DNA of 41,347 bases. Origin: Anaerolineales bacterium (lineage in GTDB: Bacteria; Chloroflexota; Anaerolineae; Anaerolineales; Villigracilaceae). Location: assembly GCA_035471605.1 (NCBI GenBank), contig DATIPW010000057.1, positions 1 to 41,347 on the forward strand, in the 5' to 3' direction. Shown here one piece after another: positions 2,554-16,731 of the stretch (position 1 is its first letter; each line of letters begins with the position of its first letter). Below the pieces are notes generated by a model. That model worked only from the letters and a program-made list of their open reading frames with translations, did not search any database and was not told where the DNA came from. A program made the position numbers and the translations under genes.

Positions 2554-3398
2554 GCGAGGATCGACTTCAGGAACTGCAGTCCCTGGGATGCAATCGCGTC
2601 TTGGCTGGGGGCAATCTTGCGCCAAATGCATACTGCTCGGGCGATCTCGCTAACCTCGGACGTGAACGACTCAATCACCACGGGACCTGAATACTTGATC
2701 TCTTTGAGTGCGGACGCCACCTCCTGCCAGCGCACCTGCCCTGTCCCAGGGATGCCGCGATCATTCTCGCACGCGTGGAAGTGGAAGATCCGATCTGAAG
2801 CCTTGCGAATCGCAGCACTGCTGCTCCGTTCTTCCAGATGCATGTGGAAGGTATCCAGGTGCAGCCCAACGTTGGGCTTGCCAACCTGATCAATGAAGTC
2901 TAAGGCCTGATCCACGATGTTGATCATGTCCGTTTCGAACCGGTTCAGAGGCTCCAGCGCAAGGCGCACACCCATTTCACCGGCGATCTTCGCCATTTCG
3001 CGGACTCCGCTCACGGCGCGCTCCCACTCGGCCCGGCGCGCGGACTCGTCATCCAGGTGTGCCTTGCCCACGCCAGAATACATCGGCCCGCAGACGGTCG
3101 ATGAACCCAGCGCAGCCGCGGCATCGATCAGCCAGCGGATGTAGGTCTTGGAGGCGTTCGAGATCGCGGGGTCCTCATTTGCCAGGTCGCGGTCCGGTCC
3201 CCATGCACCGCAGACCACAGCTTCCAACCCGTGCTCTGCCAGGCTCCGCTTGATCTCTGGCAGATCGATCGATTGAGGTGACTCAAAGGCAAGCTCAAGA
3301 ATGTCAAAGCCCATGGTCTTCACCTTGGGCGCCAACTTCAGGGCTGCCGCGGTATCTAATGGAGAAACCCACACAAACGTGTTGACGCCAAACCTCAC
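2550..3398 (-). CDS. Ketose 3-epimerase-like enzyme (D-tagatose/D-psicose 3-epimerase family, xylose-isomerase-like TIM barrel)
   Basis: LALEPLNRFETDMIN, GLHLDTFHMHLEE, HFHACENDRGIPGTG and VVIESF match the four metal-ligand blocks I recall for DTE/DPE-family epimerases. The GTG start overlaps the ROK stop (GTGA). Confidence 0.75.
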   Translation of the reverse strand: MRFGVNTFVWVSPLDTAAALKLAPKVKTMGFDILELAFESPQSIDLPEIKRSLAEHGLEAVVCGAWGPDRDLANEDPAISNASKTYIRWLIDAAAALGSSTVCGPMYSGVGKAHLDDESARRAEWERAVSGVREMAKIAGEMGVRLALEPLNRFETDMINIVDQALDFIDQVGKPNVGLHLDTFHMHLEERSSSAAIRKASDRIFHFHACENDRGIPGTGQVRWQEVASALKEIKYSGPVVIESFTSEVSEIARAVCIWRKIAPSQDAIASQGLQFLKSILA

Positions 3399-4726
3399 GG
3401 CCGCCCACCTTCCTCGTCTCGGGTCTCGCCGGGACCCTCCGGAACAATGGCAAGGACGTAGTCCAGGCCGAGGCCTATGGCACCAAGCATTCCTGCATCC
3501 GGGCCGATACCCGAAAAGACAATCTGGAGATTGCGGGTCGCCAGTGGCAGGGATCTCTTGAACACCGCCTGCCGGATGGACGACAGCAGCAAGTCTCCCA
3601 GGTTGCTCACCCCTCCGCCGATGACGATCATGTCTGGGTTGTAAAAGTTCACCAGGGCTGCCAGAACTTCCCCTACCAGCCGCCCGCTTTCGCGCACGAC
3701 CTCGATCGCAAACGCATCACCTTGCTGGGCGGCGACGCCAACATCCTGGGCTCCCAGCACATTCCCATTGCTCTCATACCGTTGCATCAGGGCCGGGCTA
3801 CGGCCGGCGCGGGCGCCCGCCAAGGCCCGCTCAGCAATACCTGCCCCGCCCGCGATTTTCTCCAAGCAGCCCTTGTTGCCGCACGGACACATCGGGCCGT
3901 TCTTGTCCACGCAAATGTGGCCGATATCGCCGGCGCACCCGCTGGAGCCTCGATAGATGCGCCCTTCACAGACTATGCCGGCACCGATTCCTGTGCCCAT
4001 CTTCACCGAGATCACGTGGTCAGCCCCGCGAGCCGCTCCCTGCCTCATCTCACCCAAGGCCATCACATTCACATCATTGTCCACAACGACATTGGCGAAG
4101 GGGAACCACTGCTGCACAGTATCTGCAATCGGATAGCGATCCCAGCCCGGCATGATCGGCGGCGAGACCACTGTTCCGGCAGAGAAATCCACCGGCCCTG
4201 GTACGCCAATGCCGATGCCCATCACGTTTTCGGCCGCCAAACCATTCTTGGCGAGCCAGCCCTCGAGGAGCGCGCAGGCGCGGCCCAGCGTGCAGATGGG
4301 CCCGTCTTGGACAACTGCGGGCTCGGAGTGCTTGACCAGCAGTTTCCCGGAAAAATCAGCAATCCCGAGGTCGAAGTCGATCGCGCCGATCTGAATGCCG
4401 GCCACCACACCAAGCTTCTCATTCAGCCGGAATGACTTCGAGCGTCGGCCCCCTGAGTACTCCGTGGATGTATTGGCGACCAGGATGGATTTGCTGAGCA
4501 GGGAGTCGATGCAACCTGTGATCTTCGTACGCGAGAAGTCGGTAAACGCGACAAGGCTTGACTTGGTGAGCTCACCCTCTCGGCGAAGCAGCTCGACCAG
4601 CGCATTCTCGGCGGTCGATATCGATTTCCGCCGCGGCAGTTTTGCAGCCCGATCCAACCACCCCGGCATGGAGCTTGATGCAACTTCCCGGGGTCCCTTG
4701 TGAGTCACGCCTCGAGCAATGCCCAT
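3395..4726 (-). CDS. ROK-family transcriptional regulator (N-terminal winged HTH plus sugar-kinase-like domain)
   Basis: HTH-like ALVELLRREGELTKSSLVAFTDFSRTKITGCIDSLL. ROK blocks are GIGVPGPVD, DNDVNVMALGE and the Zn motif CPCGNKGCLE. The maximal ORF reaches 4759 (GTG). ATG 4726..4724 is preferred because it is preceded by AAGAGGA. Confidence 0.85.
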   Translation of the reverse strand: MGIARGVTHKGPREVASSSMPGWLDRAAKLPRRKSISTAENALVELLRREGELTKSSLVAFTDFSRTKITGCIDSLLSKSILVANTSTEYSGGRRSKSFRLNEKLGVVAGIQIGAIDFDLGIADFSGKLLVKHSEPAVVQDGPICTLGRACALLEGWLAKNGLAAENVMGIGIGVPGPVDFSAGTVVSPPIMPGWDRYPIADTVQQWFPFANVVVDNDVNVMALGEMRQGAARGADHVISVKMGTGIGAGIVCEGRIYRGSSGCAGDIGHICVDKNGPMCPCGNKGCLEKIAGGAGIAERALAGARAGRSPALMQRYESNGNVLGAQDVGVAAQQGDAFAIEVVRESGRLVGEVLAALVNFYNPDMIVIGGGVSNLGDLLLSSIRQAVFKRSLPLATRNLQIVFSGIGPDAGMLGAIGLGLDYVLAIVPEGPGETRDEEGGRP

Positions 4727-4884
4727 TGCTGGCTTCGGTCCTCTTCTTTTCCGAGGCACAAGATGCGCCTCGGTACTCGTGGGCAGGGCTACAGACCACT
4801 AAGGCTTGGCTGAGACTTTGCAGTGGTTCTTCGCGGGGAACTATCTTGGACCGGTAAGCCGTGAGAACGTGTGCGCCAGGGAAA

Positions 4885-4949
4885 GTAATTACATCATCAC
4901 ATGATTCTTAGGGAAAAGGCTCTCTATGTCAATATGTTATGTGTCACAT
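4885..4949 (-). promoter_or_regulatory. Candidate internal promoter for the ROK/epimerase/ABC sub-operon, with flanking small palindromes
   Basis: The minus strand reads TTGACA (4932..4927), 17 nt, AAGAAT (4909..4904). Palindrome ATGTG-T-CACAT (4939..4949) lies just upstream. Palindrome GTAATTAC (4885..4892) lies about 12 nt downstream of the -10. Confidence 0.3.
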
Positions 4950-5042: not shown

Positions 5043-6371
5043 CTAGTTGCTGACGCACTCAAGGTCAAAAACCTTCGAAATCGTTCTCAAGTCCTCCAAG
5101 TTGTGGCCTCTCGTCAAAATATAGTGGTGGGAAACCAAGTCCGCCACCAAGCGTTTGCCATTGGGCACTCTGATCACAGCGCCGTTGAGACAATGCGAGT
5201 TCTTGAAACCAGCATACTTGGGAAGCGCTCCCTCGACGACGGACCAACGATCAAAGGGCGGCATGAGCTTAACAAGGGTAATCTCGCCCTCGGCCAAGCG
5301 GGCGTCAATGGCAGTGGCGTTGTCATCCACGATTGCCAGAACCTTCGGCTTCAGCCTCCACTCAGTAGAAAACGATTGGGGCACCACGCCAAGGTAACCG
5401 CAGTGTGCCGCCAAGATGTGGTCTTCCGTACGACCGTCGACTGCGGGGAAGTGAGGAATGTGCTCATGCTTCAGGGCCGCGTCCCCCATTTCGAAGGGGT
5501 ACAGGTTGGTCATCATGAAAGGCACACCCAGCGTCTTGCCGATCAGGATCTTGGTGAGCATGGATATCAGGTCCGCCTCGCAACCCCAGACCATGCGCTG
5601 ATCCTCGAACAGGAAGTTCCAGGCCAAGCAGGGGGTGGTATCCGAGTACATGGACTCATTGAGGCAGTTGATGCCGACCGCGATGACGCTGGGATCACGA
5701 TCCAGCTCGGCCTTGACGGCCAGGTACATCTTCACCGCGCTTAGGACCGCGCTGTCCTTGAGGCGAGAGATGGGAGTCCTACCCTTGCGCCTCGCCCACT
5801 CAGCACGTGCCGCCTCCTCCGGGATGGCACGCGCAGCGGCTGCCAGCTTCTTGAAGCTCCTCTTCACCACCTTCACGCCGTAGCGCGTCTCGATCTCCTG
5901 GACGCATTGCGGCTCCCACCAGTAGAAGCGTTTGAAAATGGGATCTTGCTGACCCTGGCTGGCGGGGTGGTCCTGGAAGACGAGCAGCTTGGAACGCTTG
6001 AGCTGCCGCTTCAGGGCGAAGGCACGGCATGCCTGGCGGGTCTTCTCCAGACTAGTCGGTCCTATGACCCGCACGCCCCGGGCCGTGAGAAAACTATTGA
6101 TTTCCCAATCCCACATCGACACGGTTCCGAATTCGGAGGTCACCACCAGGAGCGGCTGGGGGAGTCTCTTGAACTTCTCCAGGAGCCCGTAGGCCTCGCC
6201 CAGCATCTGCGGAAAGATCACTGCATCGGCGGGTGGAACCCTGGCCCCGAGCTTGACGGGTGGCAGCAGATCGGCCTCATTGATCAGGAGTTGCTTCAGC
6301 TTGCCAAGCTGAGCCTCGAACTCGGAGTCGTTTGCGGACTTGAGGTAGAGGGGGACGATCCTGGCCTTCAT
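5043..6371 (-). CDS. L-fucose/L-arabinose isomerase-like sugar isomerase (divergent)
   Basis: 442 aa. WGCEADLISMLTKIL and AAHCGYLG resemble the acidic and His metal blocks of the FucI/AraA fold. The gene sits in a sugar operon. The family call rests on remembered motif similarity only. Confidence 0.5.
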   Translation of the reverse strand: MKARIVPLYLKSANDSEFEAQLGKLKQLLINEADLLPPVKLGARVPPADAVIFPQMLGEAYGLLEKFKRLPQPLLVVTSEFGTVSMWDWEINSFLTARGVRVIGPTSLEKTRQACRAFALKRQLKRSKLLVFQDHPASQGQQDPIFKRFYWWEPQCVQEIETRYGVKVVKRSFKKLAAAARAIPEEAARAEWARRKGRTPISRLKDSAVLSAVKMYLAVKAELDRDPSVIAVGINCLNESMYSDTTPCLAWNFLFEDQRMVWGCEADLISMLTKILIGKTLGVPFMMTNLYPFEMGDAALKHEHIPHFPAVDGRTEDHILAAHCGYLGVVPQSFSTEWRLKPKVLAIVDDNATAIDARLAEGEITLVKLMPPFDRWSVVEGALPKYAGFKNSHCLNGAVIRVPNGKRLVADLVSHHYILTRGHNLEDLRTISKVFDLECVSN

Positions 6372-6494
6372 GGCTACCGAAACCTTTCGTCAACCAAGCA
6401 ATCCCAGAAGAAGAAAATCACAGGGACGGGGAGCCACATCAACCCCGTCATGGCTCGGACAGGTTTCAAACCATCGCCCCCAAAGACCGGCTGC

Positions 6495-7658
6495 TCACCT
6501 AATATCTGAGACGTTCACCTTTTGCCCAGTCCTGGCCGAGATGATGGCGGCCTCCAGTACCTGCATGTCCTTCATGCCATCGAGCAGGTTGGGGGTAAGT
6601 TTGGCGCCCTTCTCCATGGCTTTCAGGAAGTCGGCCACCGCGTGCGTGAACTCGTGCTCGTAGCCGATGATGTGCCCCGGCGGCCACCACGCGGCGATGT
6701 AGGGATGGGTGGCGTTGGTAACCAAGATCGTGCGGAAACCCTGCTCATCGGCCGGATCTGCTAAGCTCAGGTATTGAAGCTCGTTCATGCGCTCGAGGTC
6801 GAAGGCCAGGCTGCCCTTGCTCCCGTAGATCTCGAAGTAGTTGTAGTTCTTTCGGCCGCTGGCGAACCGGCTCGCCTCGAATGCCCCCAGGGCGCCGTTC
6901 TCGAACTCGGCGACCATGAAGGCGGCGTCGTCGACCGTGACCTTGCCCTTCTCCGCGGCCGCCGTACCAGACTTGAACGTGCCAGCATCCTTTCCAGGCA
7001 GCGGACGCTCGGTAACGAAGGTCTTCGTCATCGCTGAGACGGCCTTGACCTCGCCTACCAGGTAGCGGGCCAGGTCCACGCTGTGCGAGTTCAGATCGTA
7101 GTGGGGCCCTGCGCCAGCGAACTTGCTCTGCAGGTGCCAAGTGAGAGGGAAGTCCGGATCAGTGATCCAGTCCTGCAGGTAGGTACCGCGCCAGTGGAAG
7201 ATCTGGCCGATCTTGCCCTCCTCGACAAGTTGGCGGGCAAATGCGATGGCAGGCGTGCGGCGGTAGTTGTGATTCAGATAGTGCAGAACGCCAGCCTTCT
7301 CCGCCGCCTCGTACATCTCCTTGGCCTCGGCGAAGTTCAGGGCGATCGGCTTCTCGCAGAAGATGTGCTTGCCATTGCGCGCGGCGGCGACCACGATGTC
7401 CTTGTGCAGGTACGTGGGTGTGCAGACGTCGATGATGTCGACGTCCTTGCGGTTAACAACACTCTGCCAGTCGCCCGCCGATTCTTCCCAGCCCCAGCGG
7501 CCCGCAAAATCGCTGGTGCCCTTTTCGTCCTGTCCGCAGGCCACCTTGAGCACCGGCGTGATGCCGACATCAAAGAACTTGGTGACGGAGGTCCACGCGT
7601 TGCTGTGGGCCTTGCCCATGAACTTGGTGCCGATTATGGCGACGTTGGCTTTCTTCAT
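6495..7658 (-). CDS. Gfo/Idh/MocA family NAD(P)-dependent oxidoreductase
   Basis: N-terminal Rossmann VAIIGTKFMGKAHSNAW and the family EKP motif (HIFCEKPIA). SD GAGGA lies upstream of ATG 7658. Confidence 0.9.
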   Translation of the reverse strand: MKKANVAIIGTKFMGKAHSNAWTSVTKFFDVGITPVLKVACGQDEKGTSDFAGRWGWEESAGDWQSVVNRKDVDIIDVCTPTYLHKDIVVAAARNGKHIFCEKPIALNFAEAKEMYEAAEKAGVLHYLNHNYRRTPAIAFARQLVEEGKIGQIFHWRGTYLQDWITDPDFPLTWHLQSKFAGAGPHYDLNSHSVDLARYLVGEVKAVSAMTKTFVTERPLPGKDAGTFKSGTAAAEKGKVTVDDAAFMVAEFENGALGAFEASRFASGRKNYNYFEIYGSKGSLAFDLERMNELQYLSLADPADEQGFRTILVTNATHPYIAAWWPPGHIIGYEHEFTHAVADFLKAMEKGAKLTPNLLDGMKDMQVLEAAIISARTGQKVNVSDIR

Positions 7659-7713
7659 GGGATCCTCGCTTTCCAGGCGTATCCGCGCTTGGGCTGCTCT
7701 GCCCAGGCATTTT

Positions 7714-8577
7714 CTAGTGGAGGGAGGCGGCGATCTTCTTCAGGGCTTTGATGCTGAGCTCGACCATGTCGTCTTCCTTACCCTCCCAGTCGGAGTGCGG
7801 GTGGTCGATCTCCACGGCCAAGAAGCCCTTGAAGTTGGCCTTGTGCAGCAGCTCCGCCAGGCGCTGGTTGTCAATCAGTCCGTCGCCGACCGGAACGCCC
7901 CCAAAGAAATACCAGTCCGTCGGGCTCGCCTTCTTGTCTGGCATAAGGTCTTTGACATGAGTGGCCATGACATGCGGCGCAAGTTTCTCCATCGCCGCGA
8001 TCGGGTCGTCCAGCAGGCGTAGGAAATTGCCGGTGTCGAAATTCAGGCCGAAGCTCGTCGAATTGACTTCGTTGATGAGCTGCAGCACTTCGTCGCCCGT
8101 GAAGTCGATGTGATTCTCTACCGCCATCTTGACGCCGTGGTCCTCGGCAACCTTGATGGCCTTCCTGAACATCTCGACAAGGGCCTTGATCTGCGGCCCG
8201 TGGGGCTCGTGGCGGAATGCCAGGCTGCTACCCACGACGCGCATCACATCCGCGCCAATGGCCTTGGCCTTCGGAATGCCCGCGACCATCTCCTCGTATG
8301 CAGTCCAGTTCTGCCCGCGCTCGAGTCCGTCGGGATGACCCCAGGCATAGACGCGGTCCAGTTTGTAATCGTCCAGTTGGGCCTTCAGATCCCTGAACCA
8401 CCCATCATCTGCCTTCACGGGGAAGAAGCAGGACTCCAACGATACGCCGTCGACTTTCAACTCCCGGGCTCGCTTGAGGAAATCCTGCATGCTCCATTCT
8501 TTTTCCGGTTTCTTCTGATCCGGATAGACCTCCCCAAAGAAACGGTGATAGCAATAGCTGTCGATTCCGACCTTCAT
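7714..8577 (-). CDS. Sugar phosphate isomerase/epimerase family protein (xylose-isomerase-like TIM barrel)
   Basis: AVENH, FDTGNF, THVKD and AVEIDH blocks are typical of the AP_endonuc_2/XI-like barrel. A strong SD AGGAGG precedes ATG 8577. It is the first gene of the minus-strand unit. Confidence 0.85.
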   Translation of the reverse strand: MKVGIDSYCYHRFFGEVYPDQKKPEKEWSMQDFLKRARELKVDGVSLESCFFPVKADDGWFRDLKAQLDDYKLDRVYAWGHPDGLERGQNWTAYEEMVAGIPKAKAIGADVMRVVGSSLAFRHEPHGPQIKALVEMFRKAIKVAEDHGVKMAVENHIDFTGDEVLQLINEVNSTSFGLNFDTGNFLRLLDDPIAAMEKLAPHVMATHVKDLMPDKKASPTDWYFFGGVPVGDGLIDNQRLAELLHKANFKGFLAVEIDHPHSDWEGKEDDMVELSIKALKKIAASLH

Positions 8578-8699
8578 CTGCGACCTCCTGGTATGGGTTG
8601 GATCCTGCCTGCCGACACCGAGCGATGTCCCTCAGGCTGGTGTGCAGCCACAAGCGTTGGTGCCCGGCTTCACACGGAAGCCACACCGCACAAATAAAC

Positions 8700-8748
8700 C
8701 TGTCATTACAGGATGACATTATTATACAGCCATCCGCCCGAAAAGCAA
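8700..8748 (-). promoter_or_regulatory. Promoter plus palindromic operator (op3) for the minus-strand sugar unit
   Basis: The minus strand reads TTGCTT (8748..8743), 16 nt, TATAAT (8726..8721), aa, TGTCAT-CCTGTA-ATGACA (8718..8701). The inverted repeat is related to the two operators at 8984 and 20508. Confidence 0.5.
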
Positions 8749-8951
8749 GGGCCACCCAATGTGCGGTTCCGCGCTGTACCTACAGGAATCCTTGGCTTGC
8801 CGGTCACGAATTCTGGTGGGCTGGTTCCCCGTGCCTATGCTGGATCGGACGATGCTTGCTGCCACGATCGGACACGTTTGGGACGCCGCGGCGCTGCGGA
8901 ACGGCCGGGGAGAGACCGATCGCCATCCGAGAACCTGAAATGCAAGCCCTA

Positions 8952-9003
8952 TTGACATCGCCTGTCACCGCAGGTATAATTGCTTGTAATAACAGGATTA
9001 CAA
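8952..9003 (+). promoter_or_regulatory. Consensus sigma70-type promoter plus palindromic operator (op1) for the gntR-led operon
   Basis: TTGACA (8952..8957), exactly 17 nt, TATAAT (8975..8980), tgc, then TTGTAAT-AACAGG-ATTACAA (8984..9003). It lies 33 nt upstream of the GntR GTG start. Confidence 0.65.
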
Positions 9004-9035: not shown

Positions 9036-9809
9036 GTGGACGCCAAGATCAACTTCGACAGCCACCTGCCGTACTACATCCAGCTAATCGACATCCTGCG
9101 CGACAAGGTGCAGACAGGTACATGGTCACCGGGGGATCAGATCCCGGGCGAGCAGGAGCTTTGCGAAATGTATTCGGTCAGCCGCACGGTCGTGCGGCAG
9201 GCGCTGCGGGAGCTCGAGCTGGAAGGCATGATCACGCGGCGGAAGGGCAAGGGCACGTTCATCTCGCCTCCAAAGATCAGTGAAGGCCTGGTGCAAAAGC
9301 TAACCGGCTTCTACCAGGACATGGTTGAACGAGGCCTTCGCACTACTACGAGGGTCTTGCATCACAGCGTGGTCCCCGCCACAGAAAAAATCGCCCGCTT
9401 CCTGAGAATTTCACCAGGGGACAAAGTGATCGATCTGCTCAGGCTGCGGTCGATCAACGATGAGCCGATCCAGCTGGTGACCAGCTACATTCCATTATCC
9501 GTATGCCCAGAGCTCGCCGAAGTGGATCTCACGAACCGCTCGCTTTACGAGTTCATGCAGGCGGAATGTGGCGTTTTCATTGCCAAGGGACGGCGTACTG
9601 TGGAGGCCGTCTTGGCCAATGAGACCGAGGCCGCGCTGCTGGGCGTGGAGCGCGGCGCACCACTCCTGATGCTCGATAGCATCAGCTTTTCGGAGTCCGG
9701 GCAGGTGGTCGAGTATTACCATGCTCTGCACCGGGGCGATCGATCCCGCTTCGAGGTCGAGCTTCTGCGCACCCGGGAAGCCGTCTCGAAGGCGCCAGCT
9801 TCCAACTAG
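9036..9809 (+). CDS. GntR-family transcriptional regulator, HutC subfamily (wHTH plus UTRA effector domain)
   Basis: LPYYIQLIDILRDKVQTGTWSPGDQIPGEQELCEMYSVSRTVVRQALRELELEGMITRRKGKGTFI is a classic GntR wHTH. The C-terminal half is UTRA-like. GTG start follows SD GGGGAGAG. Confidence 0.9.
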   Translation: MDAKINFDSHLPYYIQLIDILRDKVQTGTWSPGDQIPGEQELCEMYSVSRTVVRQALRELELEGMITRRKGKGTFISPPKISEGLVQKLTGFYQDMVERGLRTTTRVLHHSVVPATEKIARFLRISPGDKVIDLLRLRSINDEPIQLVTSYIPLSVCPELAEVDLTNRSLYEFMQAECGVFIAKGRRTVEAVLANETEAALLGVERGAPLLMLDSISFSESGQVVEYYHALHRGDRSRFEVELLRTREAVSKAPASN

Positions 9810-9835: not shown

Positions 9836-11410
9836 GTGCCGCAAAAGTATCTGATCGGTGTTGACCTTGGAACCAGCGGGACCAAGGCCGCGCTGTATCA
9901 GGTGGATGGCAGGCGCGTTTTCGCGGCCGCCATGGAAGTTCCCCTTCACCATCCGAGCCCTGGCGTCGTGGAGCAGGACAGCGAGGATTTCTACTCGTCG
10001 GCGGCGCAGACCGTTCGCGAATGCATCGGCGGCAGCGGCGTCGAGCCTGCCTCGGTCGCCGCGATCGCTTTCGATTCACAGATGGCAGGTGTTGGTCTCA
10101 TCGATGAGGATTTCCACCCGGTAGCGCGCTTCGACTCTTGGCTCGACATGCGCTGCCGGCCGTACATTGAGGCGATGGACAGGGAAGCGGGCGAGCGCAT
10201 CACCCAGCTCACTGGCTGCCCGCCGACTTGCGACCACGGCCCCAAAATGCTCTGGTGGAAGCACGAGCAGCCGGAAGTGTACAAGCGCGCCGCCAAATTC
10301 GTCATGCCGGGGACCTACGTGTCCGGCCGGCTGGCAGGTCTGCGAGCCGACCAGGCTTTCATCGACCATACCTACATACATTTCTCGGGATTCTCGGACG
10401 CTCGCAGCGGCACGTGGTCGGACGAACTGTGCGGCCGCTTTGGGCTTGACCCGCAAAAACTGCCCAGGATCGTGGCTCCGACCGAGATCATCGGTGAGGT
10501 ACTGGAGGGACCGGGCGCTGAGTTCGGGCTGGCGCCCGGCACCATCATTGCTGCAGGGGCAGGGGACACGGCCGCCAACGCGCTGGGCGCGGGAATCGTG
10601 CGCGCGGGGATGCTCTTCGACGTGGCAGGCACGGCTTCCGTCCTGGCCGGCTGCACGGACAGATTCGTAGCTGACACGCGCAACCGCGCCCTGATGACCA
10701 TGCGTTCCGTGATTCCGGGGCTGTGGAACCCGCTGGCCTACATCGGGGGCGGCGGAATCGCGCTGCGATGGTTTCGGGACAATTTCTACAATACTTCGCG
10801 GGGGAGCCCCCTGCCTCCTGATGAGGACACGTACGCGCGGATGATCGCCACGGCACAAGGCGCTCCCCCCGGAGCCGACGGGCTCCTCTTCTCGCCGCAC
10901 TTGGGCGGCCGCATCTGCCCCTCCAGTCCGGAAATGCGCGGCGCGTGGCTCGGCTTCTCGTGGTCCCACACGCAGGCGCACTTCGCCCGTTCGATCCTCG
11001 AGAGCATCGCCTACGAGTACGCGTACTATTTGAAGATCCTGCGCACCCTCATGCCTGAACTTGAGCTTGTAGAAGCGCGAGTGGTCGGCGGCGGTGCACG
11101 CAGCCCGGGGTGGAATCAGATCAAGGCCGATGTGCTGGCAGTCCCGTACCAGCGGCTGGCGGGCAGCGAGTTCGGCACATGGGGCACGGCCATGATCGCC
11201 GGGACGGCTGCAGGCCTGATTCCGGATCTCGCCGGGCACGCGCAGAGATGCGCCGTCCGCGACGGAGACCCGCTACAGCCTGGACAGGACGCCCACGCGG
11301 CCTACGAGCCGATCGTCAGTCGATATATACGGCTGCAACACACACTTAATGCCTACTTCACCAGCTCCGAGATTGAACCCGCCCGAGAGTGGGAGGATCG
11401 ATCTAGATGA
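9836..11410 (+). CDS. FGGY-family carbohydrate kinase (xylulokinase-like), copy 1
   Basis: YLIGVDLGTSGTKAALY N-terminal ATPase motif and GAGDTAANALGAG, about 520 aa. SD AGGAGAG. The stop overlaps the next start (ATGA at 11407). Confidence 0.9.
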   Translation: MPQKYLIGVDLGTSGTKAALYQVDGRRVFAAAMEVPLHHPSPGVVEQDSEDFYSSAAQTVRECIGGSGVEPASVAAIAFDSQMAGVGLIDEDFHPVARFDSWLDMRCRPYIEAMDREAGERITQLTGCPPTCDHGPKMLWWKHEQPEVYKRAAKFVMPGTYVSGRLAGLRADQAFIDHTYIHFSGFSDARSGTWSDELCGRFGLDPQKLPRIVAPTEIIGEVLEGPGAEFGLAPGTIIAAGAGDTAANALGAGIVRAGMLFDVAGTASVLAGCTDRFVADTRNRALMTMRSVIPGLWNPLAYIGGGGIALRWFRDNFYNTSRGSPLPPDEDTYARMIATAQGAPPGADGLLFSPHLGGRICPSSPEMRGAWLGFSWSHTQAHFARSILESIAYEYAYYLKILRTLMPELELVEARVVGGGARSPGWNQIKADVLAVPYQRLAGSEFGTWGTAMIAGTAAGLIPDLAGHAQRCAVRDGDPLQPGQDAHAAYEPIVSRYIRLQHTLNAYFTSSEIEPAREWEDRSR

Positions 11411-12459
11411 GGCAACCCGTTCGCTTGTGCATGATCGGCGCAGGCCGCGTCGGGAAGAATCATTCCCGGGCAATCGTGCGCGGCATTGCCGGCGCGCGCA
11501 TCGTCGCCCTGGTGGACCCTGTAGAGCAGATCCGGCAGCAGACGGCCACGGAGTTCGGCATCCAGCAGCAGTTCGCTTCGTTGGAAGAGGCGCTGGATCA
11601 GGCCGACTTCGACGCCGTGGTGATCACCACGCCCACTCCCACGCACATGCCTCTTGCGGCCACAGCCGCCGGGCACAAGAAGCACGTGTTTCTTGAGAAA
11701 CCGATGGCGTTGAACCTGCAGGAATGCGATGAGATCCTGGCGGCGGTTGAGAGGGAGAGCGTTCTGCTGCAGCTTGGGTTCATGCGCCGGTTTGATCCCG
11801 AGTTCGTCGCGGCCGCCCGGCGCATCGAGGCGGGTGAGATTGGTCAGCCCATGATGATCAAGTCCAATACCCATGGCCCCGGCCTGCCGCCCGCCTGGGC
11901 ACGCGACCTGCGCACCTCCAACGGGATGCTGGCCGAGGTCAACAGTCATGACTGGGATACGACGCGCTGGCTGATGGGCTCTGACTACGAGCGCGTCTAC
12001 ACTGAAGTGGCCAACTTCAAGGGCACGGCCCACGGCGTGGAAGCCGAGCATTTCTACGACAACGCCCTCGTCAATCTGAAATTCGAAAGCGGCGGCCTGG
12101 GATTGATCTCCGGAGTCTGCCCCTGCGGCTATGGGTATGATGCCAGGGTGGAGGTCATCGGTGAGAGGGGCATCATGCTGATTGGATCCCTGCAGGGCCA
12201 GGATGTGGTCGTGTGCACCGATCGCGACCACGGCCTGATCACGCCGATCTACCGGACGTGGCCGGAGCGCTTCGAATGGGGCTACATAAACGAGTTGCAG
12301 CATTTCGTCACCTGCATCCAAGATGGCGAGCGACCCCGTGTGGGCGGCGTGGACGGTCGATGGGCGGTTGCGGGTGTGCTAGCAGGGACGAAATCTTTTC
12401 TTGAGGAACGCCCCGTATATCTCAAGGAAATCCTTGGGAACGGCACGCGGAAAAGCTGA
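11407..12459 (+). CDS. Gfo/Idh/MocA family oxidoreductase (inositol-2-dehydrogenase-like)
   Basis: CMIGAGRVGKNHSRA Rossmann fold, HVFLEKPMA motif, 350 aa. Confidence 0.9.
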   Translation: MRQPVRLCMIGAGRVGKNHSRAIVRGIAGARIVALVDPVEQIRQQTATEFGIQQQFASLEEALDQADFDAVVITTPTPTHMPLAATAAGHKKHVFLEKPMALNLQECDEILAAVERESVLLQLGFMRRFDPEFVAAARRIEAGEIGQPMMIKSNTHGPGLPPAWARDLRTSNGMLAEVNSHDWDTTRWLMGSDYERVYTEVANFKGTAHGVEAEHFYDNALVNLKFESGGLGLISGVCPCGYGYDARVEVIGERGIMLIGSLQGQDVVVCTDRDHGLITPIYRTWPERFEWGYINELQHFVTCIQDGERPRVGGVDGRWAVAGVLAGTKSFLEERPVYLKEILGNGTRKS

Positions 12460-12465
12460 GGGTTG

Positions 12466-13506
12466 ATGTTGGCTGCGGTGTACCACGGTCCCAATGATCT
12501 GCGCCTCGAGCAGGTGCCTGTCCCGGAGATCGAACGCGGCGAGATTCTGGTGAGGGTCGTGAGCGCAAGCATCTGCGGCACCGACCTGCGCATTTGGCAC
12601 GGCAATCACCGCATGTACCCTCCCGGAAGCGTGCGCATTCCGGGGCACGAGATTGTCGGCACCATCGCGAAGGTGTCGCCCGAGATCAGGGATTATGCGG
12701 TTGGACAGCGGGTGTTCTGCGCGCCCAACACGGGCTGCGGCCATTGCCGGCAGTGCATAACCGGCCACAACAACCTGTGCGCCAACTACGATGCCCTGGG
12801 CGTGACTTCCAACGGCGGCTTCGCTGAGTATGTGCGTATCCCCGCCAGATCGGTCCAGCAGGGAAACCTGATTCCCGTGGAGCAGTCGGTGGATCCCGCG
12901 GTGGCCGCACTGCTCGAGCCGTTCGCGTGCGTGGTGAGAGGGCAGAATGCGCTGCGCATCCAGCCAGGCGAGACCGTGCTGGTGATGGGCGCGGGACCGA
13001 TCGGCGTCATGCACGTCCAGCTAGCGAAGAGCCGCGGCGCAAGCCGAGTGGTCGTCAGCGAACCGATTGCCGAGCGGAGAACGCAGGCCGCAGCCATGGG
13101 CGCCGACAAGGTCATCAATCCCGAAACGGAGGACCTGTCCGCGGCATTGCGGGTTGAGGGCAGCGCCGGACCCGACGTGATCATCGTGGCAGCGCCTGCG
13201 CACGCGGCCCAGGAGGCCGCCGTTCAGCTGGCTGCCGTAGGCGGACGCATCAACCTATTTGGGGGCTTGCCGAAAGAACGTCCAGTGATCAGCCTGGATT
13301 CCAATCTAGTGCATTACAAGGAGCTAGTGATCACTGGAACGACGGCCTGCAGCACGGCCGATTGCTGGCAGTCGGCGCGCATCGTCAATGCGGGCCTTGT
13401 CGATCTCTCGCCGTTGATCAGCCAGCGCTTTCCTCTGAAGGATGCGGTTGCCGCCTTCAGGGCGGCAGAGGACCGGAAGTCTCTCAAGGTCGTGCTGCAA
13501 CCATGA
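12466..13506 (+). CDS. Zn-dependent medium-chain alcohol/polyol dehydrogenase (sorbitol/threonine-DH-like)
   Basis: CGTDLRIWHG...GHEIVG catalytic-Zn motif. CGHCRQCITGHNNLC structural-Zn motif. GAGPIGV NAD motif. ATG 12466 is preferred over TTG 12463. Confidence 0.9.
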   Translation: MLAAVYHGPNDLRLEQVPVPEIERGEILVRVVSASICGTDLRIWHGNHRMYPPGSVRIPGHEIVGTIAKVSPEIRDYAVGQRVFCAPNTGCGHCRQCITGHNNLCANYDALGVTSNGGFAEYVRIPARSVQQGNLIPVEQSVDPAVAALLEPFACVVRGQNALRIQPGETVLVMGAGPIGVMHVQLAKSRGASRVVVSEPIAERRTQAAAMGADKVINPETEDLSAALRVEGSAGPDVIIVAAPAHAAQEAAVQLAAVGGRINLFGGLPKERPVISLDSNLVHYKELVITGTTACSTADCWQSARIVNAGLVDLSPLISQRFPLKDAVAAFRAAEDRKSLKVVLQP

Positions 13507-14474
13507 CCCAGCCTTCCAATCACGGAGCGCCCAGCCGCGCGCGGCCGGTCGTGACCGTGCAGGGCCCGGCGGCGCACGACAGCCTGGGAATCACCGATGC
13601 ACACAACCACGTGTGGATCGAGGCCGTGCGGGGCGCGGATTCGGCCAGCCCAGTCCTGGATGACTTCGACGCCATCGCGGGCGAACTGGTGGAGTACCGC
13701 CAGGCAGGCGGTGGCAGCCTGCTCGATTGCCAGCCAGGCGGCGCGGGGCGGGATGGCAACAAGCTCCGCGAGCTCGCAGACATATCCGGCGTGAATCTGA
13801 TCGCCTGCACGGGCTTCCACCGGCGCAAGTACTACGCTGCAGACCACAAGCTCTGGGAGGCTCCTGCCGAGAAGGTCTCAGATCTGATCTGCGCTGAGTT
13901 CGAGCAGGGCCTCGAAGAAACTCTCGGAGGCGCAACCCCGGTGAAAGCAGGCTTCATCAAGATCGCGCTTGAGGCCACCTGGGAGGACTGCCCGCGTGCA
14001 GCAGTTGATGGCGCCGGCCTCGCCGCGGTCAAGACCGGAGCCCTCATGGCGATGCACACGGAGAAGGGCGCTCTGGCCGAACGTGCCTGCACACATCTGA
14101 TCGCGATCGGCGTTGAGCCGAAGCAGCTCCTCGTCTGCCATATGGACAAGCGCCCGGATGTTGGACTCCACAAGGCGCTGGTTGGCATGGGCACGATGCT
14201 GGAATACGACACGTTCTACCGGCCCAAATACGAACCCCCCGTCCGCCTGTGGCCGCTGCTGGAGATCATGGCGGACGCTGGATTGGCGGGCTACATCGCC
14301 CTCGCAACCGACATGGCGGAGAGCGAGCTCTACCGTCGTATCGGCGGCGGGCCAGGTCTGGCCAGCCTGCCCGGCGAGATCCGGCGACATCTGCAGGATC
14401 GGGGATTCTCCACGAAGCAACAGGAGCAGTTGTTGGGTGGGAATGTTGCCCGGCGCCTCGCGGGGCTTGATTAG
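13503..14474 (+). CDS. Phosphotriesterase-family (amidohydrolase) hydrolase, probable lactonase
   Basis: All PTE-type ligand positions are recognisable: GITDAHNHVW (HxH), KAGFIKIAL (bridging Lys), AMHTEKG, LLVCHMDK and ALATDMA. The ATG overlaps the previous stop (ATGA 13503..13506). The upstream part of track ORF 13362.. overlaps the preceding gene and is discarded. Confidence 0.8.
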   Translation: MTQPSNHGAPSRARPVVTVQGPAAHDSLGITDAHNHVWIEAVRGADSASPVLDDFDAIAGELVEYRQAGGGSLLDCQPGGAGRDGNKLRELADISGVNLIACTGFHRRKYYAADHKLWEAPAEKVSDLICAEFEQGLEETLGGATPVKAGFIKIALEATWEDCPRAAVDGAGLAAVKTGALMAMHTEKGALAERACTHLIAIGVEPKQLLVCHMDKRPDVGLHKALVGMGTMLEYDTFYRPKYEPPVRLWPLLEIMADAGLAGYIALATDMAESELYRRIGGGPGLASLPGEIRRHLQDRGFSTKQQEQLLGGNVARRLAGLD

Positions 14475-14493
14475 TCTCAAACTGGAGAAGCAA

Positions 14494-15081
14494 ATGAGGG
14501 ACCTGCCATTCACCTTCACGCTGCCTTTGCCAGAGGTCATCCCCTCTAGGAAAGACAATCACATCCAGCGCCGGCTTTCTGCACTTCGCGGTCAGTTTCT
14601 CGAACAGGCCGCGTACGATAGGATGCTAGCCAGGGAAGACGAATTGGTCTATGAGGTCTACGAGATCAAGCGGCCCGAGGCCCAAGGAGAGTTGATCATG
14701 GGGGTCTCCATCGTTCACCCCGGCAAAGTGGGCCGGGAGTTCTACATGACGAAAGGACACTTCCACTCCGCGCTGGAGACTTCGGAGATCTACTGCTGCC
14801 TACGCGGTGAGGGCTACATGGTGATGGAAACACCGGAGGGGGAAACGAGCGTGGAGCCACTGACGCCCGGCAAGTTGCTCTATGTGACCCCGGGCTGGGC
14901 GCATCGATCCGTATGCACCTCCCGACAGGAAGACCTGGTCACCTTCTTTGCCTATCCCGCCAACGCGGGACATGACTACGCCACGATCGAACGTACCGGC
15001 TTCAGGAAGCTGGTCGTTGATGGACCCAAGGGGCCCGAGATCGTCGACAACCCGCGGGCGACAGGCTCTGCACGGTCATGA
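14494..15081 (+). CDS. pgiA: Cupin-type phosphoglucose isomerase (archaeal cPGI family)
   Basis: VYEVYEI...HPGKVGREFYMTKGHFHS...EIYCCLRGEGYMVMETPEGE...YVTPGWAHRSV...AYPANAGHDYATIERTGFRKLVV...VDNPR aligns block for block with the Pyrococcus furiosus cupin PGI as I recall it. SD GGAGA lies before ATG 14494. Confidence 0.8.
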   Translation: MRDLPFTFTLPLPEVIPSRKDNHIQRRLSALRGQFLEQAAYDRMLAREDELVYEVYEIKRPEAQGELIMGVSIVHPGKVGREFYMTKGHFHSALETSEIYCCLRGEGYMVMETPEGETSVEPLTPGKLLYVTPGWAHRSVCTSRQEDLVTFFAYPANAGHDYATIERTGFRKLVVDGPKGPEIVDNPRATGSARS

Positions 15082-16043
15082 AGCTCAAGGAATGCCGCCT
15101 GCTCGTAACACCAACTTCGTACGGGAAGAACGACCCCCGGCTCAAGAGCGACCTCGAGGCCATGGTTGGTGAAGTCACCTACAACTCGACGGGGAAGCCG
15201 CTGACATCAGGGCAAGTCAGGGATCTCTTGCCCGGCATCGACGGATACATCGCGGGCTTGGACGCCATCGACGCGGCAGCCCTCGCCGCCGGAAACCGCC
15301 TGCGGGTGATCGCGCGCTACGGCGTGGGTGTTGATAACGTCGACCTGGAAGTCGCAAAGCATCGGAAGATCGTGGTCACAAACACCCCCGGCGCGAATTC
15401 CGTCTCCGTTGCCGAGTTGGCGCTGGGCCTGATGCTGGCGTTGGCGCGCCAGATTCCGGAGGCCGTGGAGGCCGTGCACCTCGGCAAGTGGCCGCGGTAC
15501 TCCGGTCTGAGCCTGGAAGGCAAGACCGTGGGGATTCTTGGGCTGGGTGCCATCGGCAGGCAGCTGGTCCGCAGGCTTCAGGGGTTCGATTGCCGAATCA
15601 TCGCGCACGAACCAATCGTTGACGCGGCCGCTGCAAATTCATTAGGTGTTGAGCTCTTGAGCATGCGTGAAGTCATTGGCCAGGCTGATTTCTTGAGTCT
15701 GCACGTACCGTTGCTGCCCGAGACGCGCGGTTTGGTGAACGCCGAGTTCCTGAGCCAGATGAAGCCGGGGTCATTCCTGATCAACACGGCTCGCGGCGAG
15801 GTCATCGACGAGGGCGCTCTTCTGGGCGCCCTCCGGAGCGGTCATCTGAGGGGGGCGGGGTTGGACACGTTTGCTCAGGAACCGCCTCATCCAGACAACC
15901 CTCTGCTGCGGCTGCCGCAGGTCGTGGCAACTCCGCATCTGGGCGCCATGACGGATGGCGCAACGGGCAATATGGGTTGGATGGCAATGCAAGACTGCCT
16001 GGCGGTATTGAAGGATGAGGAGCCGGCGCATCGGGTCGTTTGA
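15078..16043 (+). CDS. D-isomer-specific 2-hydroxyacid dehydrogenase (phosphoglycerate/glyoxylate reductase-like)
   Basis: GKTVGILGLGAIGRQL NAD motif, NTARGEVIDE, and C-terminal ATPHLGAMT with the catalytic His. ATGA overlap with pgiA. Confidence 0.9.
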   Translation: MKLKECRLLVTPTSYGKNDPRLKSDLEAMVGEVTYNSTGKPLTSGQVRDLLPGIDGYIAGLDAIDAAALAAGNRLRVIARYGVGVDNVDLEVAKHRKIVVTNTPGANSVSVAELALGLMLALARQIPEAVEAVHLGKWPRYSGLSLEGKTVGILGLGAIGRQLVRRLQGFDCRIIAHEPIVDAAAANSLGVELLSMREVIGQADFLSLHVPLLPETRGLVNAEFLSQMKPGSFLINTARGEVIDEGALLGALRSGHLRGAGLDTFAQEPPHPDNPLLRLPQVVATPHLGAMTDGATGNMGWMAMQDCLAVLKDEEPAHRVV

Positions 16044-16077
16044 CCGGCCGGACCTCCAGATTGGGTTTGGAGGAACC

Positions 16078-16731
16078 ATGAACAAAGCTGACGTCCTTGA
16101 ACGAATCAAGGATCTCGGGGTGCTGGCTGTGATTAGGGGCCCCTCGGCGGACCTCACGGTCAAGATGGTCGATGCGCTGATGGAAGGAGGCATTGCCGGG
16201 ATCGAAATCACCTACAGCACGCCCAACGCTGAGGAGGTCGTCCGTGCCCTGGTGAAGAAGTTCGGAGAAAGCATACTCGTTGGCATGGGCACGCTGACAG
16301 ATCTCGAACAGGCGGAATCTGCCAAGGCCGCCGGCGCGAAATTCCTCGTAAGCCCTGTTTGCGAGCCGGCGCTGGTCCGCAGCATGATTGCCAGCGAATT
16401 GCTGACGATGGCAGGCGCGCTTACGCCCACCGAGGTGCTGCAGGCCTACAGCCTCGGATCGGATGTCGTCAAGGTATTCCCGGGATCGCTTGGCGGGCCT
16501 GCCTACGTCAGGGCCCTCAAGGGACCGTTCCCGCACATTCCGATGATGCCGACCGGCGGAGTAAGTTCGACCAACGTGGCCGACTGGTTCGCCACGGGCG
16601 TGGTGGCAGTGGGTGCAGGCAGCGAATTATGCCCGCCGCAATTGGCCAGAGAAGGGAAGTTCGCCGAGATCACCAAGCGCGCTCAGGAATTCGCGAGGAT
16701 CGTGAAGGCCGCAAGACCATCTGTCAAGTAG
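16078..16731 (+). CDS. eda: 2-dehydro-3-deoxy-phosphogluconate / 4-hydroxy-2-oxoglutarate aldolase family (class I, Eda-like)
   Basis: LAVIRG....GGIAGIEITYSTPNA...VGMGTL...GAKFLVSP...DVVKVFPG...PTGGV blocks of the KDPG aldolase fold. SD GGAGGA lies before ATG 16078. Confidence 0.85.
   Translation: MNKADVLERIKDLGVLAVIRGPSADLTVKMVDALMEGGIAGIEITYSTPNAEEVVRALVKKFGESILVGMGTLTDLEQAESAKAAGAKFLVSPVCEPALVRSMIASELLTMAGALTPTEVLQAYSLGSDVVKVFPGSLGGPAYVRALKGPFPHIPMMPTGGVSSTNVADWFATGVVAVGAGSELCPPQLAREGKFAEITKRAQEFARIVKAARPSVK

What the first reader, a model, noticed from the sequence alone, without database searches (positions are those of the whole stretch)
8700..9003. Divergent control region with two copies of one 20-bp inverted-repeat operator, each placed just after a -10 box
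On the plus strand, an exact TTGACA-17-TATAAT promoter is followed 3 nt later by TTGTAAT-AACAGG-ATTACAA (8984..9003). On the minus strand, TTGCTT-16-TATAAT is followed 2 nt later by TGTCAT-CCTGTA-ATGACA (8718..8701). The half-sites (tGTaAT/ATtACa) and the 6-nt spacer (ACAGG core) are shared. This position would occlude RNA polymerase. GT..AC-type palindromes are what GntR/HutC repressors typically bind, and such a regulator is the first gene downstream. This implies autoregulation and co-repression of both divergent sugar units.
Basis: partly seen in the sequence, partly recalled or inferred. Interest (0 to 1): 0.65.

Follow-up and report, generated by a model that had tools for sequence, protein, structure and literature searches.

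The report
Conserved HutC repressor operators behind promoters
An 18-bp DNA site that sits directly behind four promoters of a sugar-catabolism gene cluster in an uncultured Anaerolineae bacterium is almost certainly the binding site of the cluster's own GntR/HutC repressor; the case is well supported, but this is an ordinary kind of bacterial on/off switch.

Summary
Three exact arm matches occur in the window against none in 100 shuffles.

The gene at 9036..9809 is a GntR+UTRA (HutC-subfamily) regulator. In about 60 orthologous Anaerolineae loci, the only conserved intergenic blocks are the two -35/-10 pairs, the 18-bp site abutting each -10, and the ribosome-binding sites.

The same site also follows the -10 of two further promoters in the window, at 20509-20526 and 4884-4901. 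The regulon therefore covers four transcription units.

One point needs correcting. The "6-nt spacer" is as conserved as the arms. The motif is TGTnATnACAgGATnACA. That is a canonical HutC GT-N4-AC palindrome (TGTA-N2-TACA, as for Pseudomonas HutC) plus a third half-site 8 bp downstream, and some lineages carry a fourth. It is not a 6-N6-6 inverted repeat.

The variable positions do not covary, which argues against an RNA hairpin. The motif follows the regulator gene even where that gene is unlinked from the cluster.

Binding, transcription start sites and the inducer remain untested. Conserved phosphate-binding residues suggest the inducer is a sugar phosphate.

Verdict: a new member of a known kind, of modest interest.

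The parts
8985..9002 (.). Proximal operator TGTAATAACAGGATTACA (20-bp inverted repeat 8984-9003), about -2 to +16 of the regulator promoter
   Evidence: Conserved at 32-47 nt before the regulator start in nearly all loci with at least 57% identity.
8952..8980 (+). Promoter of the regulator operon: TTGACA (8952-8957), 17 nt, TATAAT (8975-8980)
   Evidence: 12 of 12. Both hexamers are conserved while the spacer is randomised in 49 orthologous promoters.
8701..8718 (.). Distal operator TGTCATTACAGGATGACA, about -4 to +14 of the divergent promoter. With its flank it forms the 14-bp palindrome CCTGTCATTACAGG (8699-8712).
   Evidence: Conserved 91-142 nt before the TIM-barrel gene start in more than 30 loci.
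8721..8748 (-). Divergent promoter: TTGCTT (8748..8743), 16 nt, TATAAT (8726..8721)
   Evidence: Orthologues show cTTGaa/TTGCA, about 17 nt, then TATAATAA abutting the site. The -35 is weak in the window (3 of 6), so one search does not list it.
9036..9809 (+). GntR/HutC-subfamily regulator (257 aa), the presumed binder and the first gene of its operon
   Evidence: Pfam GntR plus UTRA. Full-length match to NagR and DasR structures at 1e-41. Below all NCBIfam equivalog cut-offs.
20509..20526 (.). Third operator TGTAATTACAGGATTACA, lying 4 nt after TACAAT. The promoter is TTGACA 20476-20481, 17 nt, TACAAT 20499-20504. It precedes the TIM-barrel gene 20627..21715.
   Evidence: The same site lies before orthologues of this gene in L002 and in many metagenome contigs.
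4884..4901 (.). Fourth operator AGTAATTACATCATCACA, behind a minus-strand promoter (TTGACA 4932..4927, 17 nt, AAGAAT 4909..4904) for the ROK-TIM-ABC unit (4759 downwards)
   Evidence: Orthologues show ATTGACA-17-TATAAT-2 nt-TGTAATSATGTAATTACY in 13 loci.
9836..20433 (+). Structural genes co-transcribed with the regulator: FGGY kinase, Gfo/Idh/MocA, Zn-ADH, PTE-type lactonase, cupin phosphoglucose isomerase, 2-hydroxyacid dehydrogenase, KDPG-type aldolase, an unknown 324-aa protein, GCAxxG, DeoC, and a second FGGY kinase
   Evidence: Gene order is conserved in orthologous loci.
5043..8577 (-). Divergent unit: TIM-barrel isomerase/epimerase-like protein, Gfo/Idh/MocA oxidoreductase, and an unknown 442-aa protein
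   Evidence: RNA contigs from sediment metatranscriptomes cover the first gene and its leader up to 8699.

Best explanation
The 18-bp elements are DNA operators of the HutC-subfamily GntR regulator encoded at 9036..9809.

Proposed mechanism:
- Without inducer, the regulator binds each operator.
- Each operator starts 2-4 nt after a -10 hexamer and covers the transcription start. Binding therefore keeps RNA polymerase from forming or leaving an open complex at four promoters of one catabolic island.
- The four promoters are the regulator's own operon (autoregulation), the divergent TIM-barrel/oxidoreductase unit, the ROK-ABC unit and the downstream TIM-barrel/ADH unit.
- An anionic ligand, probably a sugar phosphate made by a kinase of the island, binds the UTRA domain and releases the DNA-binding domains.

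Operator anatomy: TGTnA|TnACA is a canonical HutC GT-N4-AC palindrome that takes one dimer. It is extended by GG, and a third half-site ATnACA lies 8 bp further on. The third half-site probably engages a further DNA-binding domain, giving a trimer or tetramer on DNA as reported for Pseudomonas HutC.

Shown here: sequence, conservation, gene family and residue identities. Inferred: binding, repression, stoichiometry and the inducer.
For: 1. Statistics: 3 exact matches against 0 in 100 shuffles.

2. Phylogenetic footprint: in the divergent region, only the -35 and -10 hexamers, the 18-bp sites and the ribosome-binding sites are conserved. Promoter spacers and leaders are randomised.

3. Location: all 134 hits with at most one mismatch in 80 loci (1.3 Mb) are intergenic and lie next to cluster genes.

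4. Motif-anchored search, unbiased with respect to the regulator: of 120 exact matches in metagenome contigs, 67 lie before the regulator or cluster genes. Most of the rest are in AT-rich unrelated contigs, many apparently inside coding sequence by eye, although reading frames were not called.

5. The motif follows the regulator when it is unlinked from the cluster (L038-L043, L084, L097, L136 and others). It also follows the cluster when the regulator is not adjacent (L091, L122, L151, L160, L188).

6. Family fit: GT and AC are 4 nt apart, as in most HutC operators (PMC4494728). TGTA-N2-TACA is the Pseudomonas HutC consensus, and its site is described as having three half-sites (PMC12977541).

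7. Reading residues: NagR Arg48, which reads the G of GT, corresponds to an invariant Arg50. NagR Arg38, which reads the preceding G, corresponds to Gln40 and is never Arg in 80 orthologues. This fits T rather than G before GT. Wing Gly69 corresponds to an invariant Gly71.

8. Effector pocket: the NagR phosphate-binding residues Arg133, Arg135 and Ser165-Ile-Tyr167 correspond to invariant Arg136, Arg138 and Ser169-Leu-Tyr171.
Against: - There is no binding, footprint or expression experiment.
- Transcription start sites are not mapped. The only RNA evidence is assembled metatranscriptome contigs. The contig nearest the 5' end stops at 8699, which is 13-15 nt short of the predicted start. That is compatible with the model but not decisive.
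- The window's minus-strand -35 is weak (3 of 6), and the -10 of the ROK promoter matches only 4 of 6.
- A second possible regulator (ROK family, with a weak winged-helix signal at its N-terminus) sits in the island and could co-regulate.
- In several contigs the operated operon has no adjacent regulator gene, so the link rests on co-occurrence across genomes.
Confidence: 0.85

Rival explanations
1. One reading: the site is a plain 6-N6-6 (20-bp) inverted repeat. One dimer contacts the two outer arms, and the middle is only a spacer.
For: The outer arms are perfect inverted repeats in the window. In proximal sites the symmetry extends to 20 bp, with T before and A after.
Against: When sites are found by the arms alone, 135 of 155 carry ACA at positions 8-10 (about 3% expected) and G12 is present in 109 of 124. 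In solved GntR-DNA complexes the two domains sit side by side, with the G of GT and the C of AC 7 steps apart. The inner palindrome has exactly this spacing (G2-C9), whereas the outer arms are 15 steps apart. Some lineages add a fourth unit at the same 8-bp step (L037, L061, L066, L068, L069).
Confidence: 0.1
2. The sites are bound by another transcription factor, not by the HutC-type protein. Candidates are the ROK-family protein of the island (3395..4759) or an unlinked regulator.
For: A ROK protein with a weak winged-helix-like N-terminus is encoded in the island and has a site in its own promoter. Some operated operons lack an adjacent HutC gene.
Against: Forty-two loci have the site before the HutC gene without any ROK orthologue in the locus, and none has ROK without a site. 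The site accompanies the HutC gene when it stands alone. The motif has the HutC-family GT-N4-AC geometry, and the regulator's reading residues fit it.
Confidence: 0.06
3. The element works as RNA: a 5'-terminal hairpin (6-7 bp stem, 6-nt loop) on the mRNAs that affects stability or translation. A variant reading is that the minus-strand copy is an intrinsic terminator.
For: The sites lie at or just after the predicted starts, so they would be transcribed. flags CCTGTAATGACAGG plus a T-rich tail (8712..8699) as terminator-like.
Against: The variable arm positions 4 and 15 are complementary in only 73 of 138 sites (57.5 expected if independent), and the commonest distal site is a C/A mismatch. 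The element is used in both orientations relative to transcription, so the loop would differ (ACAGG against CCUGU). Rfam gives no match. The T-rich tail is not conserved in orthologues, and no minus-strand gene ends upstream of it.
Confidence: 0.03
4. The HutC-type protein binds the sites but acts as an activator or dual regulator rather than as a simple repressor.
For: Some GntR-family proteins activate (general knowledge). Expression was not measured here.
Against: At all four promoters the site overlaps the predicted start directly behind a good -10. The promoters match the sigma-70 consensus closely, at 12 of 12 and 11 of 12, so they should not need an activator. The site works in either orientation.
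Confidence: 0.05

Closest known systems
Pseudomonas HutC and its Phut operator (hutU and hutF promoters)
   Same: Same subfamily (GntR wHTH plus UTRA). The operator core is TGTA-N2-TACA, identical in form to TGTA-AT-TACA here. The strongly bound region is described as a canonical site with three half-sites, with dimer-to-tetramer assembly on DNA and overlap with the promoter. The inducer is a small anionic metabolite (PMC12977541).
   Different: The regulon differs (histidine/urocanate against an uncharacterised sugar island), as does the phylum (Pseudomonadota against Chloroflexota/Anaerolineae). Here the third half-site is as invariant as the core and sits at a fixed 8-bp step. The protein scores below the NCBIfam HutC equivalog cut-off (142.6 against 220 bits), so it is not a HutC orthologue.
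Bacillus subtilis NagR (YvoA) / Streptomyces DasR and dre sites
   Same: These are the closest solved structures (1e-41 over the full length). They are repressors of sugar catabolism with a GT-N4-AC palindrome. The G of GT is read by a conserved Arg, the wing contains a Gly, and a sugar-phosphate effector is held by two Arg residues and a helix N-terminus. All of these residues are conserved here.
   Different: dre half-sites are GGT/ACC, and the first G is read by Arg38. Here the half-site is TGT and the equivalent residue is Gln, Pro or Ala. dre sites are single 14-16-bp palindromes without an obligatory third half-site.
Additional half-sites next to GntR-family palindromes (Suvorova, Korostelev and Gelfand 2015)
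   Same: That comparative study found weaker extra boxes 7-12 nt from the palindrome centre in FadR, HutC and YtrA groups, and described divergons with two sites, one per operon (PMC4494728). Here the extra box is centred about 10 nt from the palindrome centre.
   Different: The extra box here is not weaker than the core and can be iterated to a fourth unit. This regulator group and its motif were not found in the searchable literature.
HutC-subfamily regulators that bind direct repeats (E. coli FarR/MngR TGTATTAWTT; NagQ TGGTATT)
   Same: The half-site begins with TGT and is reused as tandem direct copies (PMC4494728). Here ATnACAGG-ATnACA(-GG-ATnACA) is a direct repeat.
   Different: Those operators lack a palindromic core and have a different repeat length. 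Here a canonical palindrome is always present at one end, and the step is 8 bp.

Membership tests
GntR family, HutC subfamily (protein 9036..9809) | N-terminal GntR-type winged helix-turn-helix (PF00392) | tested here: met
   residues 16-76, E = 3e-21, above the gathering score.
GntR family, HutC subfamily (protein 9036..9809) | C-terminal UTRA / chorismate-lyase-fold effector domain (PF07702) | tested here: met
   residues 98-236, E = 6e-44; full-length alignment to the NagR and DasR structures.
GntR family, HutC subfamily (protein 9036..9809) | Orthology to a characterised member (HutC, PhnF, TreR, NagR and others) | tested here: not met
   all NCBIfam equivalog models score below their cut-offs. 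It is therefore an uncharacterised member of the subfamily, not any named regulator.
HutC-type operator | Palindromic core with GT and AC separated by 4 nt | tested here: met
   T-GT-nATn-AC-A at positions 1-10 of every site. The definition comes from PMC4494728.
HutC-type operator | Located in the promoter of the regulator gene and/or of adjacent target operons, and conserved with them | tested here: met
HutC-type operator | Specific binding by the cognate regulator, relieved by its effector | not testable with these tools
   This needs EMSA or footprinting with purified protein. Only indirect support is available, from co-occurrence and reading residues.
Repressor operator that overlaps the transcription start | The site overlaps -10/+1 of a functional promoter | tested here: inconclusive
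   At sequence level this is met at four promoters. Start sites are not mapped. The RNA contigs end at 8699 and none spans 8700-9050.
Structured RNA element (riboswitch, leader hairpin or terminator) | Stem kept by compensatory changes, fixed orientation relative to transcription, or a match to a known family | tested here: not met
   No covariation, both orientations in use, and no Rfam match.
CcpA/LacI-type cre site (considered because of the TGTAA...TTACA look) | 14-bp palindrome with a central CG (TGWAANCGNTNWCA, from general knowledge) | tested here: not met
   The centre here is AT, the half-site spacing differs, and a third half-site is present. No LacI-family gene is present among the genes scanned.

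The most novel reading that the evidence does not exclude
The operator may not be 'a palindrome plus a helper box'. It may instead be a phased array: an inverted cap (TGTnAT) followed by two to three direct 8-bp units (ATnACAGG). The regulator would assemble on it as a trimer or tetramer, with DNA-binding domains engaged at a non-integral helical step. That binding mode would differ from the side-by-side dimer seen in the FadR, AraR and NagR complexes. It could explain structurally the long-noted extra half-sites of GntR-family operators and the stepwise oligomers reported for HutC.
Probability: 0.2. Interest if true: 0.5.

Novelty: new member of a known kind. Interest (0 to 1): 0.3.

Why it matters
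It gives a ready-made, comparatively validated regulator-operator pair and a four-promoter regulon for a widespread catabolic island of uncultured Anaerolineae from sediments and soils.

- The island's substrate is unknown. The regulator could be used to screen for it, by asking which sugar phosphate releases the DNA.
- The invariant third half-site at a fixed 8-bp step is a clean natural case for asking how HutC-type proteins use extra half-sites.
- Beyond that, it is textbook negative autoregulation of a divergent sugar locus.

Tried and rejected
1. RNA element. Rfam found nothing at gathering or permissive thresholds, the arms do not covary, and both orientations are used. Rejected.

2. Intrinsic terminator at 8712..8699 (flagged). 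The tail is not conserved and no gene lies upstream on that strand. Rejected.

3. DNA looping between the two operators. Their separation ranges from 115 to 742 bp in 33 loci with no helical phasing (Rayleigh p = 0.1-0.4). Each site therefore probably serves its own promoter.

4. A lone palindrome-like element at 8775-8786 (TGTACCTACAGG). It is not conserved in orthologous regions and is treated as chance.

5. Mapping start sites from public RNA. Only assembled metatranscriptome contigs of related strains exist. They show that the divergent gene is transcribed and that the leader is covered up to 8699, but they give no 5' ends.

6. Naming the substrate. Pfam, NCBIfam and PDB searches give only generic enzyme classes, plus a cupin phosphoglucose isomerase and a PTE-type phospho-lactonase-like protein. 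Two conserved proteins have no match at all. No pathway could be assigned.

7. Literature search for the motif string. This returned only unrelated hits.

8. Anchoring the information profile on the -10 box. The operator signal was blurred because the gap between the -10 and the site varies by a few nt. The arm-anchored profile was used instead for the spacer question.

Full report
**Observation**

- Plus strand: TTGACA (8952-8957), 17 nt, TATAAT (8975-8980), 3 nt, then TTGTAATAACAGGATTACAA (8984-9003).
- Minus strand: TTGCTT (8748..8743), 16 nt, TATAAT (8726..8721), 2 nt, then TGTCATCCTGTAATGACA (8718..8701).

The consensus scan lists the plus-strand promoter at 12 of 12. It omits the minus-strand promoter because its -35 matches only 3 of 6.

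The arm pattern TGTMAT-N6-ATKACA occurs three times exactly in the window, at 8701, 8985 and 20509. It occurred in none of 100 dinucleotide-preserving shuffles. A one-mismatch copy lies at 4884-4901.

**Surroundings**

The gene behind the plus-strand promoter (9036..9809) has a GntR winged-helix domain and a UTRA domain, which is the HutC-subfamily architecture. It aligns over its full length with the NagR/YvoA and DasR structures at 1e-41. It stays below every NCBIfam equivalog cut-off, so it is an uncharacterised member of the subfamily.

The regulator heads a long plus-strand operon. Its genes encode an FGGY kinase, a Gfo/Idh/MocA oxidoreductase, a Zn-ADH, a PTE-type lactonase, a cupin phosphoglucose isomerase, a 2-hydroxyacid dehydrogenase, a KDPG-type aldolase, an unknown 324-aa protein, a GCAxxG protein, DeoC and a second FGGY kinase.

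The divergent unit encodes a xylose-isomerase-like TIM barrel, a Gfo/Idh/MocA oxidoreductase and an unknown 442-aa protein. Beyond it lie a ROK protein, another TIM barrel and an ABC ATPase.

The third site (20509-20526) follows TTGACA-17-TACAAT by 4 nt and precedes a TIM-barrel/ADH unit. The fourth site (4884-4901) follows a minus-strand TTGACA-17-AAGAAT by 2 nt and precedes the ROK unit. All four copies therefore sit directly behind a -10 hexamer.

**Related loci**

A protein-anchored scan of species-representative genomes returned 80 loci with 54-83% identity. Nearly all are from Chloroflexota/Anaerolineae metagenome-assembled genomes. Gene order of the island is conserved.

- Nearly every locus with at least 57% identity carries the site 32-47 nt before the regulator start, preceded by ctaTTGACA-17-TATAAT. 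The promoter spacer and the leader are randomised.
- The distal site, with TATAATAA abutting it and a cTTGaa -35, is conserved 91-142 nt before the TIM-barrel gene in more than 30 loci.
- A multiple alignment of seven divergent regions shows only five conserved kinds of block: the two ribosome-binding sites, the two -35/-10 pairs and the two operators.
- The ROK-promoter site and the TIM-barrel/ADH site are conserved in the same way.
- All 134 hits with at most one mismatch across 1.3 Mb of loci are intergenic and adjacent to island genes.

A search anchored on the motif instead of the protein gave 120 exact matches of TGTAATNACAGGATTACA in metagenome contigs.

- 67 lie before the regulator (37) or island genes (30).
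- At least three more are truncated true promoters at contig ends.
- Most of the rest are in unrelated AT-rich contigs. Several of these share the same flanking sequence and look as if they lie inside coding sequence, but reading frames were not called.

**Which protein binds**

The motif accompanies the HutC-type gene where that gene stands alone, without island genes within 10 kb (L038-L043, L084, L097, L136 and others). It also accompanies island operons that begin without the regulator (L091, L122, L151, L160, L188). This pattern is what a trans-acting, autoregulated local regulator would produce.

Forty-two loci have the site before the HutC gene with no ROK orthologue in the locus. No locus has ROK without the site.

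The reading residues fit the motif. In the NagR-DNA structures, Arg48 reads the G of GT, Arg38 reads the preceding G, and wing Gly69 reaches the minor groove (PMC4333415). The equivalents here are:

| NagR residue | Role in NagR | Equivalent here |
|---|---|---|
| Arg48 | reads the G of GT | Arg50, invariant in 80 orthologues |
| Gly69 | wing, reaches the minor groove | Gly71, invariant |
| Arg38 | reads the G before GT | Gln40 in the window; Gln, Pro, Ala or others in orthologues, never Arg |

The comparative study of GntR motifs found that Arg at this HTH position prefers G/C at the base before GT (PMC4494728). A non-Arg residue therefore fits TGT rather than GGT.

**Anatomy of the operator**

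The '6-nt spacer' is not a spacer. When sites are collected by the arms alone, 135 of 155 carry ACA at positions 8-10 in one orientation, against about 3% expected. In addition, G12 is present in 109 of 124 and G11 in 86 of 124.

The only variable positions are 4, 7 and 15. Each is the 'n' of one of three equivalent hexamers: TGTnAT (1-6, inverted), ATnACA (5-10) and ATnACA (13-18).

Positions 1-10 form a palindrome with GT and AC 4 nt apart, which is the spacing of most HutC operators (PMC4494728). It is identical in form to the Pseudomonas HutC consensus TGTA-N2-TACA (PMC12977541).

G2 and C9 are 7 steps apart, like G-4 and C+4 in the NagR complex, where the two domains sit side by side in one major-groove segment. 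The outer arms (G2 and C17) are 15 steps apart and do not fit that geometry.

The right arm is therefore best read as a third half-site centred about 10 nt from the palindrome centre. Such extra boxes at 7-12 nt were reported statistically for FadR, HutC and YtrA groups. The strongly bound Pseudomonas site is described as having three half-sites, with HutC assembling up to tetramers on DNA.

In a more distant clade a fourth unit follows at the same 8-bp step. An example is TGTCATAACAAGATTACAGGATAACA in L061, and similar sites occur in L037, L066, L068 and L069.

**Rivals**

- *RNA hairpin.* The arm positions 4 and 15 pair in 73 of 138 sites, against 57.5 expected by independence. The commonest distal site is a C/A mismatch. 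The element is used in both orientations relative to transcription. Rfam finds nothing.
- *Terminator.* The terminator-like call on the minus strand has a non-conserved tail and no gene upstream of it.
- *Looping.* The separation between operators varies from 115 to 742 bp without helical phasing, so each operator probably serves its own promoter.

**Mechanism (inferred)**

The regulator represses four promoters by occupying roughly -4 to +16 of each. It limits its own synthesis because it is the first gene behind one operator.

The NagR residues that hold the effector's phosphate (Arg133, Arg135, Ser165-Ile-Tyr167) are invariant here as Arg136, Arg138 and Ser169-Leu-Tyr171. The next gene is a sugar kinase. 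A phosphorylated intermediate is therefore the likely inducer. The substrate of the island could not be named.

**RNA evidence**

The organism or close strains occur in sediment metagenomes. Metatranscriptome contigs cover the divergent TIM-barrel gene and its leader up to 8699, and none spans 8700-9050. This is compatible with a start near 8713, but it is weak evidence. The contigs are assemblies, carry no direction, and could include DNA.

**Comparison and verdict**

This is a HutC-subfamily repressor with a HutC-type operator placed in the classical position for a repressor. Membership of the subfamily is met on domain architecture and operator geometry. Orthology to any named regulator is not met. 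Binding cannot be tested here.

The motif string is not in the searchable literature. The operator description should change from '20-bp inverted repeat with a 6-nt spacer' to 'canonical 10-12-bp HutC palindrome plus an equally conserved third half-site at +8 bp'. The regulon should be extended to four promoters.

It is a new member of a known kind. The interest is modest and rests mainly on the unusually strict third half-site and on the unknown, widely conserved Anaerolineae pathway that it controls.

Noticed in passing
window 4884-4901 (promoter 4904-4932, minus strand): A fourth copy of the operator (AGTAATTACATCATCACA) lies 2 nt behind a minus-strand TTGACA-17-AAGAAT promoter, before the ROK / TIM-barrel / ABC-ATPase unit. 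The first base is A or G instead of T in all orthologous copies of this particular site.
   Followed up: yes
window 20476-20526: The third copy (TGTAATTACAGGATTACA, the perfect consensus) lies behind TTGACA-17-TACAAT, before the TIM-barrel/ADH unit 20627..22798. Its layout is the same as at the regulator promoter.
   Followed up: yes
window 8719-8726 and 8975-8990: The half-site resembles the -10 hexamer (TGTAAT against TATAAT). At the distal promoter the complement of the -10 (ATTATA, 8721-8726) continues the 8-bp register of the ATnACA units (ATTACAGG-ATGACATT-ATTATA). This could be coincidence, or a way of coupling the operator to the -10.
   Followed up: no
L037, L061, L066, L068, L069 (sites just before the regulator start): More distant orthologues carry a fourth unit at the same 8-bp step (...ATTACAGGATAACA). 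In L047-L062 the site lies only 11-24 nt before a TTG start codon, leaving almost no leader.
   Followed up: partly
window 5043..6371 (-) and 16745..17719 (+): Two proteins conserved throughout the island (442 aa and 324 aa) have no Pfam match and no PDB sequence match. The 324-aa protein shows only a faint shikimate-dehydrogenase-like NCBIfam signal. They co-occur with the regulator across the whole set of loci.
   Followed up: partly
window about 14500..15081 (+): The operon encodes a cupin-type phosphoglucose isomerase that matches the archaeal (Pyrococcus/Thermococcus) enzymes at 1e-46. The listed ORF (14113..15081) is about 130 codons longer than the homologous part, so the real start is probably near 14500.
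   Followed up: partly
window 8775-8786: TGTACCTACAGG is a lone TGTA-N2-TACA-GG element between the two operators. It is not conserved in orthologous intergenic regions.
   Followed up: yes
window 8408-8699: In one marine-sediment metatranscriptome, the 5' leader of the divergent TIM-barrel gene is the best-covered part of the region (word depth about 8). The contig ends 2 nt before the operator. The leader sequence itself is not conserved among orthologues.
   Followed up: partly
L085, L121, L145, L155, L199 and other AT-rich metagenome contigs: Exact matches to the 18-bp motif also occur in unrelated low-GC contigs. Several share similar flanks, which suggests a conserved coding segment. Read in frame the core would encode ...ITGLH..., but frames were not called. 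These matches are unrelated to the operator and are a caution for motif-only searches.
   Followed up: partly
L188 (about 4900-6300), L102, L131: In some contigs the divergent region joins the TIM-barrel unit directly to the Gfo/ADH genes. The operator is present, but the regulator and the first kinase are absent. The regulator gene is therefore mobile relative to its regulon.
   Followed up: partly
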